Assembly (NCBI GenBank): GCA_963749355.1
Contig: CAVVMM010000012.1
Span: 154,683-218,682, forward strand
Origin: an uncultured Acidimicrobiaceae bacterium
Lineage (GTDB): Bacteria; Actinomycetota; Acidimicrobiia; Acidimicrobiales; RAAP-2
DNA length: 64,000 nt
Reading direction: 5' to 3'
Shown piece by piece: positions 56,264-58,790 of the stretch. The notes beneath the pieces are model-generated. The model had not been told where the DNA came from, ran no database searches, and saw only the letters and a list, made by a program, of their open reading frames with translations. Within the stretch, counting starts at the first letter, position 1, and every line of letters begins with the position of its first letter. The translations under genes were made by a program, and so were the position numbers.

Positions 56264-56720
56264 GATTTTCTGATGTCCGCGATCGAAATTATAGCCGGTA
56301 AATCATTACCCTCAGTGCTCTAGATTACGGACGTCGGTTCGCAAGGGATCGTGGCATGAAAGGGGTTCAAAATATCAACTGTTCTGCGGGAGCGTAGGGG
56401 TCGCGTCGAGGTCGTAACGCTCAACCGTCCCGAGGTGCGCAACGCTCTTGATCCCGAGACGATCGGCGAGTTGTCGGATATCTTCCGTGAGATCGCCCAG
56501 GACGTCGAGGTCGGGGCGGCGATCCTCACCGGTGCTGGTGATCGCGCCTTCTGCGCCGGTATGGACCTCAAGGCTTTCGTTGCCCGTGGGGGAGGACGCT
56601 CGAAGCGATCGCCAAGTCTTCCCAGCTTTACCCGGACGTTGTGCCCGAAGCCGGTCATCGATGCCGCCTACGGTGCCGCCGTGGCTGGCGGGTTGGAACT
56701 GACGCGAAGATAGTGCTTCC

Positions 56721-57959
56721 CTAAGCAGCGGTCGGCTCAAGAGTCACTGCGTAGCCCAAGTTTCGAAGTTGGTCGATGGCACGCCGTTTTGCTTTCTCGG
56801 GACTGAGCTTGGTGTAAAAGTCACCGCCCGGTTCGTTGAAGGTCTCTCCGGTCTGCAACATGTTCCAAACGGTGACGAGCATGGCGTGTTCGAGGGCGAC
56901 CACGGCCTTGACCGGTCCTCGACGCGAGGCGATCCGCCGATACTTGGCTGCGTAGTACGTGTCGTGCGATCGCGACGCGCTCAAGGCGGCGATGCCGAGC
57001 GCGCCCTTTAGGTAGGGATTGCCCGGACGAGTGCGCGTTGACTTCACTCGGCCCGCCGATTCGTTGGAGCCCGGACAGACACCGGCCCACGAGGCCAGGT
57101 GACCGGCGGTAGGGAACCGGCTCATGTCGGCGCCGGTCTCGGCGATGATCACGTCAGCCACTTTCGTGGAGATCCCCGGGATCGTCGAGATCAGATCCCG
57201 GGCTGGGCGAAAAGGTGCCATCACCACCTCAATGCGGGCCGTGATCTCGTCGATCGCCTTGGCTCGTTGGTCAATGAGGTTCAATTGGATCTGGACCAAG
57301 AAAGCGTGGTGTTCGCTGAAGCGTCCGGTGAGTGCTTCGGTCAACTCGGGAATTTTGTTTCGCAGTCGCCCCTTGGCCATGTTGGCGAGAACCTCCGGGT
57401 CGCGCTCGCCGGCCACAAGAGCGTCGAGCATGATTCGAGCTGAGACACCGTGCATTTCCGTGGCGACCGACGAGAGCTTCACCCCGGTGTCCTCCATCAA
57501 CTTCTCCAGGCGCTGAATCTCACGAGTACGTTCCCGAATAATCGTGGTGCGCGTTCGAGTCAGGTCGCGCAACTGGCGAATCGGCTCGGGTGGCACGAAT
57601 GAACTGCGCACCAGACCGTGCGCGCCGAGTTGTGCCAACCACGCCGCGTCCGAGACGTCGGTCTTTCGTCCGGGCAAGTTCTTCACGTGTCGGGCGTTGA
57701 CGAGCATGATCTCGAAGGGTCCCTCTTCGAGCAGATAGTAGAAGGGCTTCCAGTAGTCACTGGTCGCCTCCATCACGACCAACGTCACCCGCTCGGTGAT
57801 GAGGTGCTCTCGCAGCGCCAGGATCTGGTTGGTCACCGCGACCCACGTCGTCACCGTGGAGCTCGCTCTGGCTCGACCAGGTTCTTGGGTTCGCACGCAG
57901 ACCTTGACGTCTCTCTTCGAGATGTCGAGACCCGCGCATCGGTAATGGACAATGTCCAC
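56721..57959 (-). CDS. IS110-family DEDD recombinase/transposase
   Basis: GLDISK (D), MEATS (E), KTDVSDA (DD), TIPGI, WAGVCPG..ESAG (catalytic Ser); GAAGGAG RBS; ORF intact. Confidence 0.96.
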   Translation of the reverse strand: MDIVHYRCAGLDISKRDVKVCVRTQEPGRARASSTVTTWVAVTNQILALREHLITERVTLVVMEATSDYWKPFYYLLEEGPFEIMLVNARHVKNLPGRKTDVSDAAWLAQLGAHGLVRSSFVPPEPIRQLRDLTRTRTTIIRERTREIQRLEKLMEDTGVKLSSVATEMHGVSARIMLDALVAGERDPEVLANMAKGRLRNKIPELTEALTGRFSEHHAFLVQIQLNLIDQRAKAIDEITARIEVVMAPFRPARDLISTIPGISTKVADVIIAETGADMSRFPTAGHLASWAGVCPGSNESAGRVKSTRTRPGNPYLKGALGIAALSASRSHDTYYAAKYRRIASRRGPVKAVVALEHAMLVTVWNMLQTGETFNEPGGDFYTKLSPEKAKRRAIDQLRNLGYAVTLEPTAA

Positions 57960-57990
57960 GATGTCTCCTTCTGTACGTTCACTTTTCAGA

Positions 57991-58141
57991 TGTCCGTTCC
58001 GGAGAGGGCGAGATACTTCAGAAGTCTGACGCTCGTGCTCTAAGGCAACAGTCCACGGTTCTCGTGGATGCCCTCCTCCACCATGCTGCTGTACAGGCTC
58101 ATGGCACTACAGTCCCTTCGGTGTCTAACCGGACCGAACAC
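57991..58141 (-). ncRNA. Predicted IS110 bridge/seek-type RNA
   Basis: 12-bp closing stem (58129-58140 with 57991-58002), two repeated GGACUG..UGCC..GAGC..NNNNCAG modules matching junction sequences, and an upstream -35/-10. Folded by eye only. Confidence 0.7.
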
Positions 58142-58146
58142 GTCGA

Positions 58147-58175
58147 ATAGTACTGAGTGAGCCGACTGCTGGCGA
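58147..58175 (-). promoter_or_regulatory. Putative promoter TCGCCA-N17-TACTAT for the IS110 non-coding RNA
   Basis: -10 at 58147-58152 and -35 at 58170-58175; predicted +1 falls at the first base of the closing stem (~58140-58141). Confidence 0.55.
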
Positions 58176-58790
58176 GTCGCAGATTAGGCGAACCGTACAC
58201 GCACTATCTTCCGTCCGCACGGCGAGCCCGCGACGGGCCCTACGTTGCTGCTGTTGACTTGCAACCTGGTTGTGGCGGCGGAGCACGCCACTTTCGCCAT
58301 TCCTGAGGTCAACCGGGGACTCATTGCCGCGGGGGGCGGCCTCGTGAGGTTGCCGCGCAGGCTGCCGCTGGCCGTCGCGCTCGAAATGGGTCTCACTGGT
58401 GACGCGATCGATGCCCGGCGAGCGCATCAAATTGGACTGGTCAACCGTGTCGTGTCGGGTCCGGAAGTTGTCGATGAGGCACTGGCGCTGGCGGAGCGAA
58501 TATGCCTGAACGCGCCCACCGCCGTGCGCGAGTAAGAGGCTCATGTATGCGGCCCTCGATGGTTCCGAAGACGACGCCTGGAATGCGTCGTCAACGGCCG
58601 CAGAAGAGATTTTTGGTAGTCCCGACGCGACCGGTGGAGCTCGAGCGTATCTCGAGAAGCGCGTTCCTTCATCGTCGAACGCGTGACGCCTGATTGCGCG
58701 ACCTCCTTGGGGGTACGTACGGCGAGCACCAGTGTTTGGGGCCGAGTAAGGACGCGAGTGATAGTGGCGTACGCGAGCGCATAGACGCGT

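What the first reader, a model, noticed from the sequence alone, without database searches (positions are those of the whole stretch)
57991..58175. IS110 non-coding end encodes a two-loop RNA whose guides match its own target and donor junctions (bridge-RNA-like, CAG core)
Seen: on the transposase strand the region reads GGGACUG-uagUGCCauGAGC-cugu-ACAGCAG, then UGGACUG-uUGCCuuaGAGC-acga-GCGUCAG, i.e. the same module twice. It is enclosed by a 12-bp stem (1 G-U pair, 1 mismatch) and has an inner GAGGGC/GCCCUC stem. The reconstructed empty target (minus strand) is acag-CAG-ttcc. ACAGCAG (58086-58092) matches it 7/7 (58248-58254), and GGGACUG (58110-58116) pairs with the other arm 6/7 plus a G-T wobble (56695-56701). 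GCGUCAG (58026-58032) matches the element end plus core 7/7 (56699-56705). A -35/-10 sits exactly at the RNA 5' end. Established: IS110 elements such as IS621 use a bridge RNA with target-binding and donor-binding loops. Inference: this is such an RNA with a core of up to 3 nt (CAG) and the antisense arm placed before the sense arm in each loop, which as I recall differs from IS621. It is a candidate new programmable recombinase subtype.
Basis: partly seen in the sequence, partly recalled or inferred. Interest (0 to 1): 0.9.

Follow-up and report, generated by a model that had tools for sequence, protein, structure and literature searches.

The report
Bridge RNA of an actinobacterial IS110
The non-coding left end of this intact jumping gene very probably encodes a real two-loop guide ("bridge") RNA that spells out its insertion site and its own right end, but it belongs to an already catalogued branch of RNA-guided IS110 elements and is not a new kind of system.

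Summary
A 1549-bp IS110-family element (56699-58250, minus strand) sits scarlessly in an enoyl-CoA hydratase gene. Its 288-nt left end carries a ~150-nt two-loop RNA (58140-57991). In 61 distinct relatives the stems covary: 95% of cells are paired and 17 pairs have changes on both sides.

Three of the four guide arms are real:
- The loop-1 3' arm equals left flank + AG. Its own 7-mer was found in 59 of 72 loci, against 2.3% for foreign 7-mers, across 17 distinct guides.
- The loop-2 3' arm equals right end + AG (53 of 67 loci).
- The loop-1 5' arm reads only the core plus about 4 nt of right flank.

The fourth "guide" (UGGACUG) is invariant and matches only the core.

The family-wide core is AG, not CAG. 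The arm order is reversed relative to IS621. This order was already published for IS1111 seekRNAs (Siddiquee 2024), and an AG core on the transposase strand is shown for ISPpu9. The nearest named relative, ISArsp3, is already listed by Durrant et al. with a left-end bridge RNA.

Expression is untested and the promoter is weak. This scan has noted the same family, and "flipped" bridge RNAs, on other DNA before.

Verdict: new member of a known kind, of moderate-to-low interest.

The parts
56699..58250 (-). IS110-family element with both core copies. It is 1549 bp counted with one core copy (56699-58247). The left end (LE) is 288 nt and the right end (RE) is 22 nt.
   Evidence: Junctions were read.
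56721..57959 (-). Intact transposase/recombinase gene, 412 aa. Putative catalytic residues are D12, E64, D101, D104 and S301, inferred from motifs.
   Evidence: ORF. Pfam DEDD_Tnp_IS110 (1.8e-27) plus Transposase_20 (5.2e-21). Motif positions.
57991..58140 (-). Bridge RNA body, from the 5' strand to the 3' strand of outer stem P1 (about 150 nt).
   Evidence: Architecture conserved in 23 distant and 61 closer relatives.
58129..58140 (-). Outer stem P1, 5' strand. It pairs with 57991-58002.
   Evidence: helix 1: 92.6% of cells paired; 8 of 12 pairs have changes on both sides.
57991..58002 (-). Outer stem P1, 3' strand.
   Evidence: helix 1.
58120..58123 (-). Target-loop lower stem, 5' strand (CACC). 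It pairs with GGUG at 58079-58082.
   Evidence: CG, GC/AU/GU and UA/CG covariation in distant relatives. helix 2.
58110..58116 (-). Target-loop 5' arm GGGACUG. It is antisense to core + right flank (CAGTTCC, 56695-56701).
   Evidence: Family-wide, complementarity exceeds shuffles only at right-flank positions +1 to +4.
58094..58109 (-). Target-loop upper hairpin (UAG-U-GC / GC-CUG).
   Evidence: GC/AU covariation. helix 3: 100% paired.
58084..58092 (-). Target-loop 3' arm ACAGCAG (58086-58092) equals left flank + core. It is followed by CA (58084-58085), which equals the first two bases of the LE and looks like a handshake guide.
   Evidence: In the 66-94% set the dinucleotide matches the LE start at 61/62 and 55/62 loci. 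In distant relatives it covaries (TC, TG, TT, AA, TA, CA).
58070..58076 (-). It pairs with 58003-58009 and encloses the donor loop.
   Evidence: helix 4: 98.3% paired; 4 of 7 pairs have changes on both sides.
58053..58067 (-). Conserved hairpin CCACG-agaac-CGUGG.
   Evidence: helix 5: 95.6% paired, with one compensatory G-C to A-U change. The sequence is nearly invariant while LE starts vary.
58034..58050 (-). Donor-loop upper hairpin (UGU-U-GC / GC-ACG). This is the second copy of the 'module'.
   Evidence: helix 6. Pair 108-121 is UA in 34 and GC in 27 sequences.
58026..58032 (-). Donor-loop 3' arm GCGUCAG equals RE end + core (56699-56705).
   Evidence: Seven distinct donor arms were seen; the own match is found in 53/67 loci and foreign arms in 7/402.
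58248..58250 (-). Core copy at the left junction (CAG here; AG family-wide).
56699..56701 (-). Core copy at the right junction.
58147..58175 (-). Weak sigma-70-like candidate promoter: TCGCCA (58170-58175), 17-nt spacer, TACTAT (58147-58152). It would place the start near 58140.
   Evidence: Read directly from the sequence. It falls below the scan threshold. An A/T-rich -10-like hexamer sits at the same place in relatives.
58201..58211 (.). Subterminal inverted repeat, LE copy (GAAGATAGTGC on the minus strand). It pairs with 56706-56716 next to the RE end.
   Evidence: repeat I12: 11 nt, 100% complementary. A CGCGAAGATTC-type copy lies about 35 nt inside the LE in 53 relatives.
56706..56716 (.). 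Subterminal inverted repeat, RE copy.
   Evidence: repeat I12.
58158..58171 (.). Second, inner inverted repeat. The LE copy pairs with 56726-56739, which lies in the last transposase codons.
   Evidence: repeat I5: 14 nt, 93% complementary. A counterpart with matching changes is visible in L002.
58224..58240 (-). Palindrome close to the left end (GGGCCCG-tcg-CGGGCUC).
   Evidence: A hairpin at the same place occurs in relatives. ISPpu9 has a comparable GCCC-N4-GGGC palindrome.
56435..56701 (+). Upstream half of the interrupted enoyl-CoA hydratase-like host gene.
58251..58535 (+). Downstream half of the interrupted host gene.

Best explanation
This is the bridge (seek) RNA gene of an intact IS110-family insertion sequence of the ISArsp3/ISPpu9-like clade.

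Shown:
- The element is inserted scarlessly at acag-CAG-ttcc in an enoyl-CoA hydratase gene.
- Its left end folds into a conserved, covarying structure: outer stem, then a target loop, then an inner stem enclosing a donor loop.
- In each loop, the 3' arm has the sense sequence of the DNA to the left of the crossover plus the AG core. In loop 1 that is left flank + AG plus two LE bases. In loop 2 it is right end + AG.
- The loop-1 5' arm is antisense to the core plus about 4 nt of right flank.

Inferred:
- The RNA is made from the transposase strand, because invariant U-G pairs would be A-C on the other strand. It probably comes from an internal promoter near 58147-58175.
- It binds a recombinase tetramer and aligns the circular form's RE-LE junction with the target. 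Recombination occurs at the AG core, as in IS621.
- Read on the strand opposite to the transposase gene, the logic becomes exactly that of IS621: a CT core, a 5' arm with the sense of left + core, and a 3' arm antisense to core + right followed by a 2-nt handshake guide. The recombination site therefore faces the opposite way relative to the genes.
- The donor loop's 5' side reads little more than the core.
For: - Pfam DEDD_Tnp_IS110 plus Transposase_20 on an intact 412-aa ORF.
- The host gene is restored without a gap using one CTG.
- The structure is conserved from 39% to 94% transposase identity.
- On 61 distinct sequences, 95% of cells are paired, against 91.0 +/- 0.3 in shuffles and 33-47% with the partners slid. 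Seventeen pairs have changes on both sides, against 6.6 +/- 1.2 in shuffles (0 of 500 shuffles reach this).
- The target arm tracks its own left flank: 59/72 own against 27/1152 foreign, with 17 distinct 7-mers.
- Two diverged copies in the same genome have a different loop 1 (GUGGCAG, UGAUCUG) and correspondingly different flanks.
- The donor arm tracks its own right end: 53/67 against 7/402, with 7 distinct arms.
- Right-flank positions +1 to +4 are complementary to the 5' arm at rates of 0.60, 0.63, 0.54 and 0.41, against 0.45, 0.42, 0.31 and 0.26 in shuffles.
- The handshake dinucleotide matches the LE start.
- Published rules used for comparison: Durrant 2024, Hiraizumi 2024, Siddiquee 2024, ISPpu9.
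Against: - There is no evidence that the RNA is made or bound. Only Logan contigs of relatives at 90-95% likeness were found in one metatranscriptome, without strand or end information.
- No Rfam 15 family matches.
- The candidate promoter scores 8 of 12 and is not called by the scan.
- The fourth arm does not match the LE start beyond the core.
- The right-flank match in this copy is only 4 of 7 positions beyond... in full, CAGTTCC against the guide-predicted CAGTCCC differs at one position (a G:T wobble), and family-wide the right-flank signal ends after +4.
- In the family statistics, left junctions were located using the arm itself. For the window copy the junction is independent, from the host gene.
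- Relatives are not independent samples.
Confidence: 0.88

Rival explanations
1. The structured left end is only a cis-acting 5' untranslated leader that controls transposase translation, as described for the ISPpu9 leader. On this view the 7-mer matches to the flanks are incidental.
For: - ISPpu9, a related element, has a long structured 5'-UTR that inhibits tnp translation and a native promoter.
- The structure here ends only about 30 nt before the ribosome-binding site.
- No expression or processing data exist for this element.
Against: - Loop sequences change together with the flanks across 17 target guides and 7 donor guides, while the stems stay fixed. A pure leader would not track insertion sites.
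- A regulatory role could coexist with guiding but cannot replace it.
Confidence: 0.04
2. It is a mechanistically distinct, undescribed bridge-RNA subtype. Its features would be a 3-nt CAG core, swapped arms, and a donor loop that reads only one side, so that the element's left end is recognised by something other than an RNA guide (for example the subterminal inverted repeats).
For: - The arm order is reversed relative to IS621.
- The 5' side of the donor loop is invariant and matches only the core.
- Nested LE/RE inverted repeats are conserved.
- I found no paper in the held library that describes this clade's guides in detail.
Against: - The core is AG in the family, not CAG.
- Flipping the DNA strand restores IS621 logic completely, including the position of the handshake guide.
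- The same arm order is published for IS1111 seekRNAs, and the AG core for ISPpu9.
- A left-end bridge RNA is already recorded for ISArsp3.
- In IS621 the right-donor pairing is also short and discontiguous, so a weak fourth arm is not unprecedented.
Confidence: 0.2
3. The matches between the loop 7-mers and the junctions are chance in a G+C-rich sequence.
For: A single 7-mer is expected several times in 64 kb on both strands (arithmetic, not a tool result).
Against: - The matches sit exactly at both junctions.
- They recur with different sequences in relatives: 82% for a locus's own 7-mer against 2.3% for foreign ones.
Confidence: 0.01

Closest known systems
ISArsp3 (ISfinder; Arthrobacter) and its clade, in the IS110 group as listed in Durrant et al. 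2024 Supplementary Tables 1 and 5
   Same: - The transposase shares long identical stretches with ISArsp3, seen by eye and not computed. Examples are VVMEATxDYWxPFYYLLE, PGRKTDVSDAAWLAxLGAHGLV, TREIQRLEKLxED and GSNESAGRVKST.
- The long non-coding end lies upstream.
- Durrant's covariance models detected a bridge RNA in the left end of ISArsp3.
   Different: - The window element is a different, unnamed member from an Acidimicrobiales-type metagenome genome. Its closest relative, L041, is 90% identical.
- The published table gives no guide details for ISArsp3, so arm order and core could not be compared.
ISPpu9 of Pseudomonas putida (IS110 group; PMC12288879)
   Same: - The transposase sequence motifs are related.
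- Recombination occurs at an AG dinucleotide at both ends, on the transposase strand.
- A native promoter drives a long structured leader that contains the bridge RNA.
- There is a palindrome close to the left end.
   Different: - ISPpu9 targets REP elements and carries Asr9/Ssr9 small RNAs and A/B boxes.
- None of these was sought here.
- Its guides are not spelled out in the text I read.
IS621 bridge RNA (Durrant 2024, PMC11208160; Hiraizumi 2024, PMC11208158)
   Same: - It is encoded in the left end on the recombinase strand.
- It has two internal loops, each with a lower stem, arm, hairpin and arm.
[quoted passage not shown]
- One long and one short arm per loop.
- A 2-nt handshake guide follows the 3' arm.
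- The right-donor pairing is weak or discontiguous.
   Different: [quoted passage not shown] Here the order is reversed.
- The core is CT in IS621 and AG here, which is the same site read on the other strand.
- The long arm is 5' in IS621 and 3' here.
- IS621 rebuilds its promoter at the RE-LE junction. Here the candidate promoter lies about 75-100 nt inside the LE.
- The two recombinases belong to different subgroups.
IS1111-family seekRNAs (ISEc11, ISKpn4, ISPa11; Siddiquee 2024, PMC11187229)
   Same: - The order of the target matches is the same: the complement of the top strand lies 5' of the bottom-strand match.
- Subterminal inverted repeats are present.
   Different: - In IS1111 elements the non-coding region and RNA lie downstream of the transposase gene. 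Here they lie upstream.
- The LE copy of the inverted repeat is about 36 nt inside the end rather than next to it.

Membership tests
IS110-family bridge/seek RNA | Encoded in the long non-coding end of an element whose recombinase has the DEDD (RuvC-like) and Tnp (serine) domains | tested here: met
   Pfam PF01548 and PF02371 on an intact ORF. The LE is 288 nt and the RE 22 nt.
IS110-family bridge/seek RNA | Conserved secondary structure with two guide-bearing internal loops, supported by covariation | tested here: met
   39 pairs, 95% of cells paired, 17 pairs with compensatory changes, and 0 of 500 shuffles reach the observed values. One search shows the same for distant relatives.
IS110-family bridge/seek RNA | Target-loop arms pair with both strands of the target and overlap at the core, and they covary with insertion sites across orthologues | tested here: met
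   The 3' arm matches its own flank in 59/72 loci, against 2.3% for foreign arms. The 5' arm shows signal at flank positions +1 to +4 only. The window copy matches 7/7 on one side and 6/7 plus a wobble on the other.
IS110-family bridge/seek RNA | Donor-loop arms pair with both sides of the RE-LE junction | tested here: inconclusive
   The left-donor (RE) arm is met: 53/67 own against 7/402 foreign. The right-donor (LE) side shows only a core match (CUG/UUG) and no covariation with LE starts.
IS110-family bridge/seek RNA | Scarless insertion at a short core shared by target and donor | tested here: met
   One CTG restores the host gene. AG is invariant at both junctions in relatives.
IS110-family bridge/seek RNA | The RNA is expressed and bound by the recombinase and is needed for recombination | not testable with these tools
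   Only contigs of relatives in soil and permafrost libraries were found, with no strand or end information.
IS621-type (Piv-like) bridge RNA specifically | [quoted passage not shown] | tested here: not met
   The arm order is reversed and the core is AG on the recombinase strand. The rule is met only if the DNA is read on the opposite strand.
IS1111 group | Long non-coding region and RNA downstream of the transposase gene | tested here: not met
   The RE is 22 nt and the structured RNA lies upstream.
IS1111 group | Subterminal inverted repeats of 7-17 bp | tested here: met
   An 11-nt perfect repeat at 58201-58211 / 56706-56716, conserved in 53 relatives. The LE copy, however, lies about 36 nt from the end.
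Any Rfam family | Match to a curated covariance model | tested here: not met
   The best hits have E-values of 1.5-8.5 and fall far below the gathering scores.

The most novel reading that the evidence does not exclude
The ISArsp3-like actinobacterial clade may represent a bridge-RNA architecture not yet described in print. The RNA gene is upstream as in the IS110 group, but the site polarity is mirrored: on the IS621 model the CT-bearing, first-cleaved strand would be antisense to the recombinase gene. The donor loop lacks a right-donor guide. The element's left end would then be read only through the core, the target loop's handshake dinucleotide, and perhaps the nested subterminal inverted repeats.
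Probability: 0.2. Interest if true: 0.5.

Novelty: new member of a known kind. Interest (0 to 1): 0.3.

Why it matters
It gives a clean, fully readable natural example of RNA-guided transposition in high-G+C Actinomycetota. One RNA scaffold carries at least 17 naturally reprogrammed target guides and 7 donor guides. This includes elements aimed at the right end of a sibling IS.

It also documents that, in this clade, the recombination site faces the opposite way relative to the genes compared with IS621. That is useful for annotating IS110 ends and targets correctly, and possibly for choosing orthologues for genome engineering in actinobacteria.

It does not open a new mechanism. The kind of system, the AG core, the reversed arm order and the presence of a left-end RNA in the nearest named element are all already in the literature.

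Tried and rejected
- **Rfam 15 scan of 56500-58500.** It returned only chance-level hits.
- **Single-sequence folding of the whole LE.** It was uninformative (z = +0.96). The structure emerged only from comparative data.
- **RNAalifold on the first MAFFT alignment of distant relatives.** It recovered only three helices, because the outer stems were misaligned. A manual structure on the closer set was used instead.
- **Promoter and terminator scan.** No site was found.
- **Public sequencing runs.** The stretch or relatives of it occur in soil, peat and permafrost metagenomes. In one metatranscriptome (X19), contigs 90-95% alike cover parts of the element, including 58078-58227. These are contigs of relatives, with no strand, ends or proof of transcription. 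They are no evidence either way.
It is rejected because the host gene fixes the junction at 58248-58250 and the internal site is not conserved in L002 or L003.
- **RNA made from the opposite strand.** This is rejected. Invariant U-G pairs (columns 37-53 and 106-123, 61 of 61 sequences) would become A-C, and the reverse RNA does not restore IS621 logic either.
- **Alternative pairing GAGA/UCUC** in place of the CCACG/CGUGG hairpin. It was considered but not resolved.
- **Plasmid protein search for a named relative.** It gave only generic 'IS110 family transposase' labels.
- **Literature search for actinobacterial bridge RNAs.** Nothing specific was found.
- **Vaysset et al. and CazIS110-1 preprints.** Both were read and add nothing on arm order in this clade.

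Full report
**The locus.** On the minus strand of the window lies a 412-aa ORF (56721-57959) with Pfam DEDD_Tnp_IS110 and Transposase_20 domains. It interrupts an enoyl-CoA hydratase-like gene on the plus strand. On the minus strand the junctions read ..caacagCAG|caacgtaggg.. (left) and ..cttcgcgtCAG|ttccaacc.. (right). Removing the element and keeping one CTG gives a host protein that aligns without a gap across the junction (AGGLELLLTCNLVVAAEHATF) to intact homologues in five related genomes. Keeping zero or two CTG copies changes the length by one residue. The element is therefore 1549 bp with one core copy, with a 288-nt left end (LE) and a 22-nt right end (RE). The insertion is scarless, as expected for the IS110 family.

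**Check of the observation.**
- The outer 12-position stem, the inner GAGGGC/GCCCUC stem and the twice-repeated module are present.
- The proposed -35/-10 exists (TCGCCA, 17 nt, TACTAT at 58147-58175) but scores 8 of 12, and the consensus scan calls nothing in the region.
- Rfam 15 has no matching family.
- The single-sequence fold is not better than shuffles, so the case rests on comparison with relatives.

**Relatives collected.**
- The same genome (a 2.17-Mb, 78%-complete metagenome assembly) holds two copies that are 77-78% identical, L002 and L003. Both have frameshifted transposase genes.
- A sample of 400 genomes of the phylum gave 30 loci at 39-74% protein identity.
- A scan of species-representative genomes gave 80 loci at 66-94%. 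They come from Acidimicrobiales metagenome genomes and from Micromonospora, Nocardioides, Arthrobacter, Cellulomonas, Nocardia, Mycobacterium and others.
- A Rhodococcus ruber plasmid carries a 67% relative.

**Structure.** Upstream regions align into one architecture over this whole range. In order, it consists of:
- outer stem P1;
- a target module made of a lower stem, a variable 5' arm, a conserved hairpin xG-U-GC/GC-Cx, a variable 3' arm ending in AG plus two bases, and the lower stem again;
- inner stem P2, which encloses a small hairpin, a second conserved hairpin GU-U-GC/GC-AC, a variable 3' arm ending in AG, and a tail.

The 'module seen twice' is this pair of conserved hairpins.

I counted pairs on 61 distinct sequences.
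- 95.0% of cells form standard pairs. Shuffles give 91.0 +/- 0.3, and sliding the partners gives 33-47%.
- 17 of 39 pairs have changes on both sides, against 6.6 +/- 1.2 in shuffles. None of 500 shuffles reaches this.
- P1 has 8 such pairs of 12, and P2 has 4 of 7.
- One donor-hairpin pair is UA in 34 sequences and GC in 27.
- Two U-G pairs are invariant in all 61 sequences. They would be A-C on the other strand, so the RNA is read from the transposase strand.

**Guides.**
- *Copies in the same genome.* In the window loop 1 reads GGGACUG...ACAGCAG. In L002 and L003 it reads UGAUCUG...GUGGCAG. Their flanks are GTGGCAG|ACTA and GTAGCAG|ATCG, against ACAGCAG|TTCC in the window. Loop 2 and the RE end are the same in all three.
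- *Target arm, 3' side.* In 72 loci, the locus's own loop-1 3' 7-mer occurs in its own upstream window in 59. Foreign 7-mers occur in 27 of 1152 trials. There are 17 distinct 7-mers.
- *Donor arm, 3' side.* The loop-2 3' 7-mer occurs just downstream of its own transposase gene in 53 of 67 loci, against 7 of 402 for foreign arms. There are 7 distinct arms, and the RE end changes with them (GCGTCAG, GCATCAG, GCACCAG, GACTCAG, GTGTCAG and others).
- *Handshake dinucleotide.* The two bases after AG in the loop-1 3' arm equal the first two LE bases. In the close set this holds at 61/62 and 55/62 loci. In the distant set the dinucleotide covaries (TC, TG, TT, AA, TA, CA). This matches the handshake guide of IS621.
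- *Target arm, 5' side.* The loop-1 5' arm is complementary to the right flank above shuffled pairings only at positions +1 to +4: rates of 0.60, 0.63, 0.54 and 0.41 against 0.45, 0.42, 0.31 and 0.26.
- *The fourth 7-mer.* UGGACUG is nearly invariant (UGGAUUG or UGGACUG) while LE starts vary (CAACG, CAGTC, CAAGA, CGACG, CTACG). Four of its bases lie in the conserved CCACG/CGUGG hairpin. Only CUG/UUG can pair, and only with the core. It is not a guide in the sense of the other three.
- *Core.* Target and donor share only AG in many relatives, for example GATAAG against CCTGAG in L009. The core is therefore AG, and CAG in this copy is just the overlap.

**Comparison with what is known.**
[quoted passage not shown] The core is CT, and handshake guides follow the 3' arms.
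- *The flipped reading.* Read on the strand opposite to the transposase gene, everything becomes IS621-like: a CT core, a 5' arm with the sense of left + core, and a 3' arm antisense to core + right followed by a handshake dinucleotide complementary to the last bases of the left donor. I therefore read the difference as an inverted orientation of the roughly 14-bp recombination site relative to the genes. The long and short arms are also exchanged. I do not read it as a different mechanism. This step is inference.
- *IS1111 seekRNAs.* The same order, with the top-strand complement first, was reported for IS1111 seekRNAs and contrasted with the IS110-type ISEc21.
- *ISPpu9.* Its transposase shares this clade's motifs. 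It recombines at an AG dinucleotide at both ends on the transposase strand, uses a native promoter for a long structured leader containing the bridge RNA, and has a palindrome near its left end.
- *ISArsp3.* This ISfinder element is the nearest named relative I could see. It is listed in Durrant's Supplementary Table 5 as 'LE, IS110', meaning a left-end bridge RNA was detected by their models.
- *IS1111-like trait.* The element also has nested LE/RE inverted repeats (11 nt perfect and 14 nt at 93%). The first is conserved about 35 nt inside the LE in 53 relatives. This occurs in an element whose RNA lies upstream.

**Expression.** The stretch, or relatives of it, occurs in soil, peat and permafrost metagenomes. 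One metatranscriptome holds contigs 90-95% alike over parts of the element. Contigs show neither strand nor ends, so I draw nothing from this.

**Earlier notes of this scan.** The same transposase family was noted in another genome as a bridge-RNA candidate (e1-4223584). Several follow-ups describe 'flipped' or 'mirrored' bridge RNAs elsewhere (e1-5228866, e1-5051369, e1-5396836). They agree with my reading but are not independent evidence. Note e1-5458761 on this window proposed an alternative internal core. The host-gene reconstruction and the lack of conservation in L002 and L003 argue against it. The inverted copy of the opposite end that it noticed is real.

**Verdict.** The bridge-RNA interpretation is supported at about 0.9. 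The claim of a new programmable recombinase subtype is not supported. This is a new, well-resolved member of a catalogued IS110 clade. Its mirrored site polarity and minimal fourth guide are worth recording but are only modestly novel.

Noticed in passing
L058:838-898 and L079:845-905 (left junctions), with a second transposase gene upstream: Elements whose donor arm is GACUCAG carry the target arm GCGUCAG, which equals the right end + core of the sister subfamily. In two unrelated metagenome genomes (Dermatophilaceae and Mycobacteriales), such an element sits directly behind the right end (..aatcttcgcgtcag) of a sibling IS. This is a natural case of an IS aimed at another IS's end.
   Followed up: partly
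window 58201-58211 / 56706-56716 and 58158-58171 / 56726-56739: Nested inverted repeats link the left end to the right end. The inner right arm lies in the last transposase codons. In the circular form they would bracket the donor junction. Their role is unknown. They resemble the subterminal repeats of IS1111 elements.
   Followed up: partly
L006, L007, L008, L053, L054, L065-L120 (left and right junctions): Forty of 72 family members carry the target arm AGGUCAG. They sit at ..(g/c)cAGGTCAG|AG(G/C).. in many unrelated actinobacterial genomes. In L008 the site lies about 15 nt after what looks like a tRNA 3' end. I did not establish what this recurrent target motif is.
   Followed up: no
L002:1789-3031 and L003:1790-3118 (same genome, contigs C1 and C2): Two diverged copies of the element (77-78% DNA identity) have frameshifted transposase genes but intact-looking bridge RNA regions with a different target loop. 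They may be decaying copies. Whether the intact window copy could mobilise them is not known, but their donor loop and ends are identical to the window's.
   Followed up: partly
window 58224-58240: A G+C-rich palindrome (GGGCCCG-tcg-CGGGCUC) lies 7 nt inside the left end. A hairpin at the equivalent place is present in distant relatives, and ISPpu9 has a GCCC-N4-GGGC palindrome near its left end. Its function is unknown.
   Followed up: no
G000 contig C2:233868-234035 (L004): A 168-bp fragment is 71% identical to the 3' part of the transposase gene. It is probably a remnant of a further copy.
   Followed up: no
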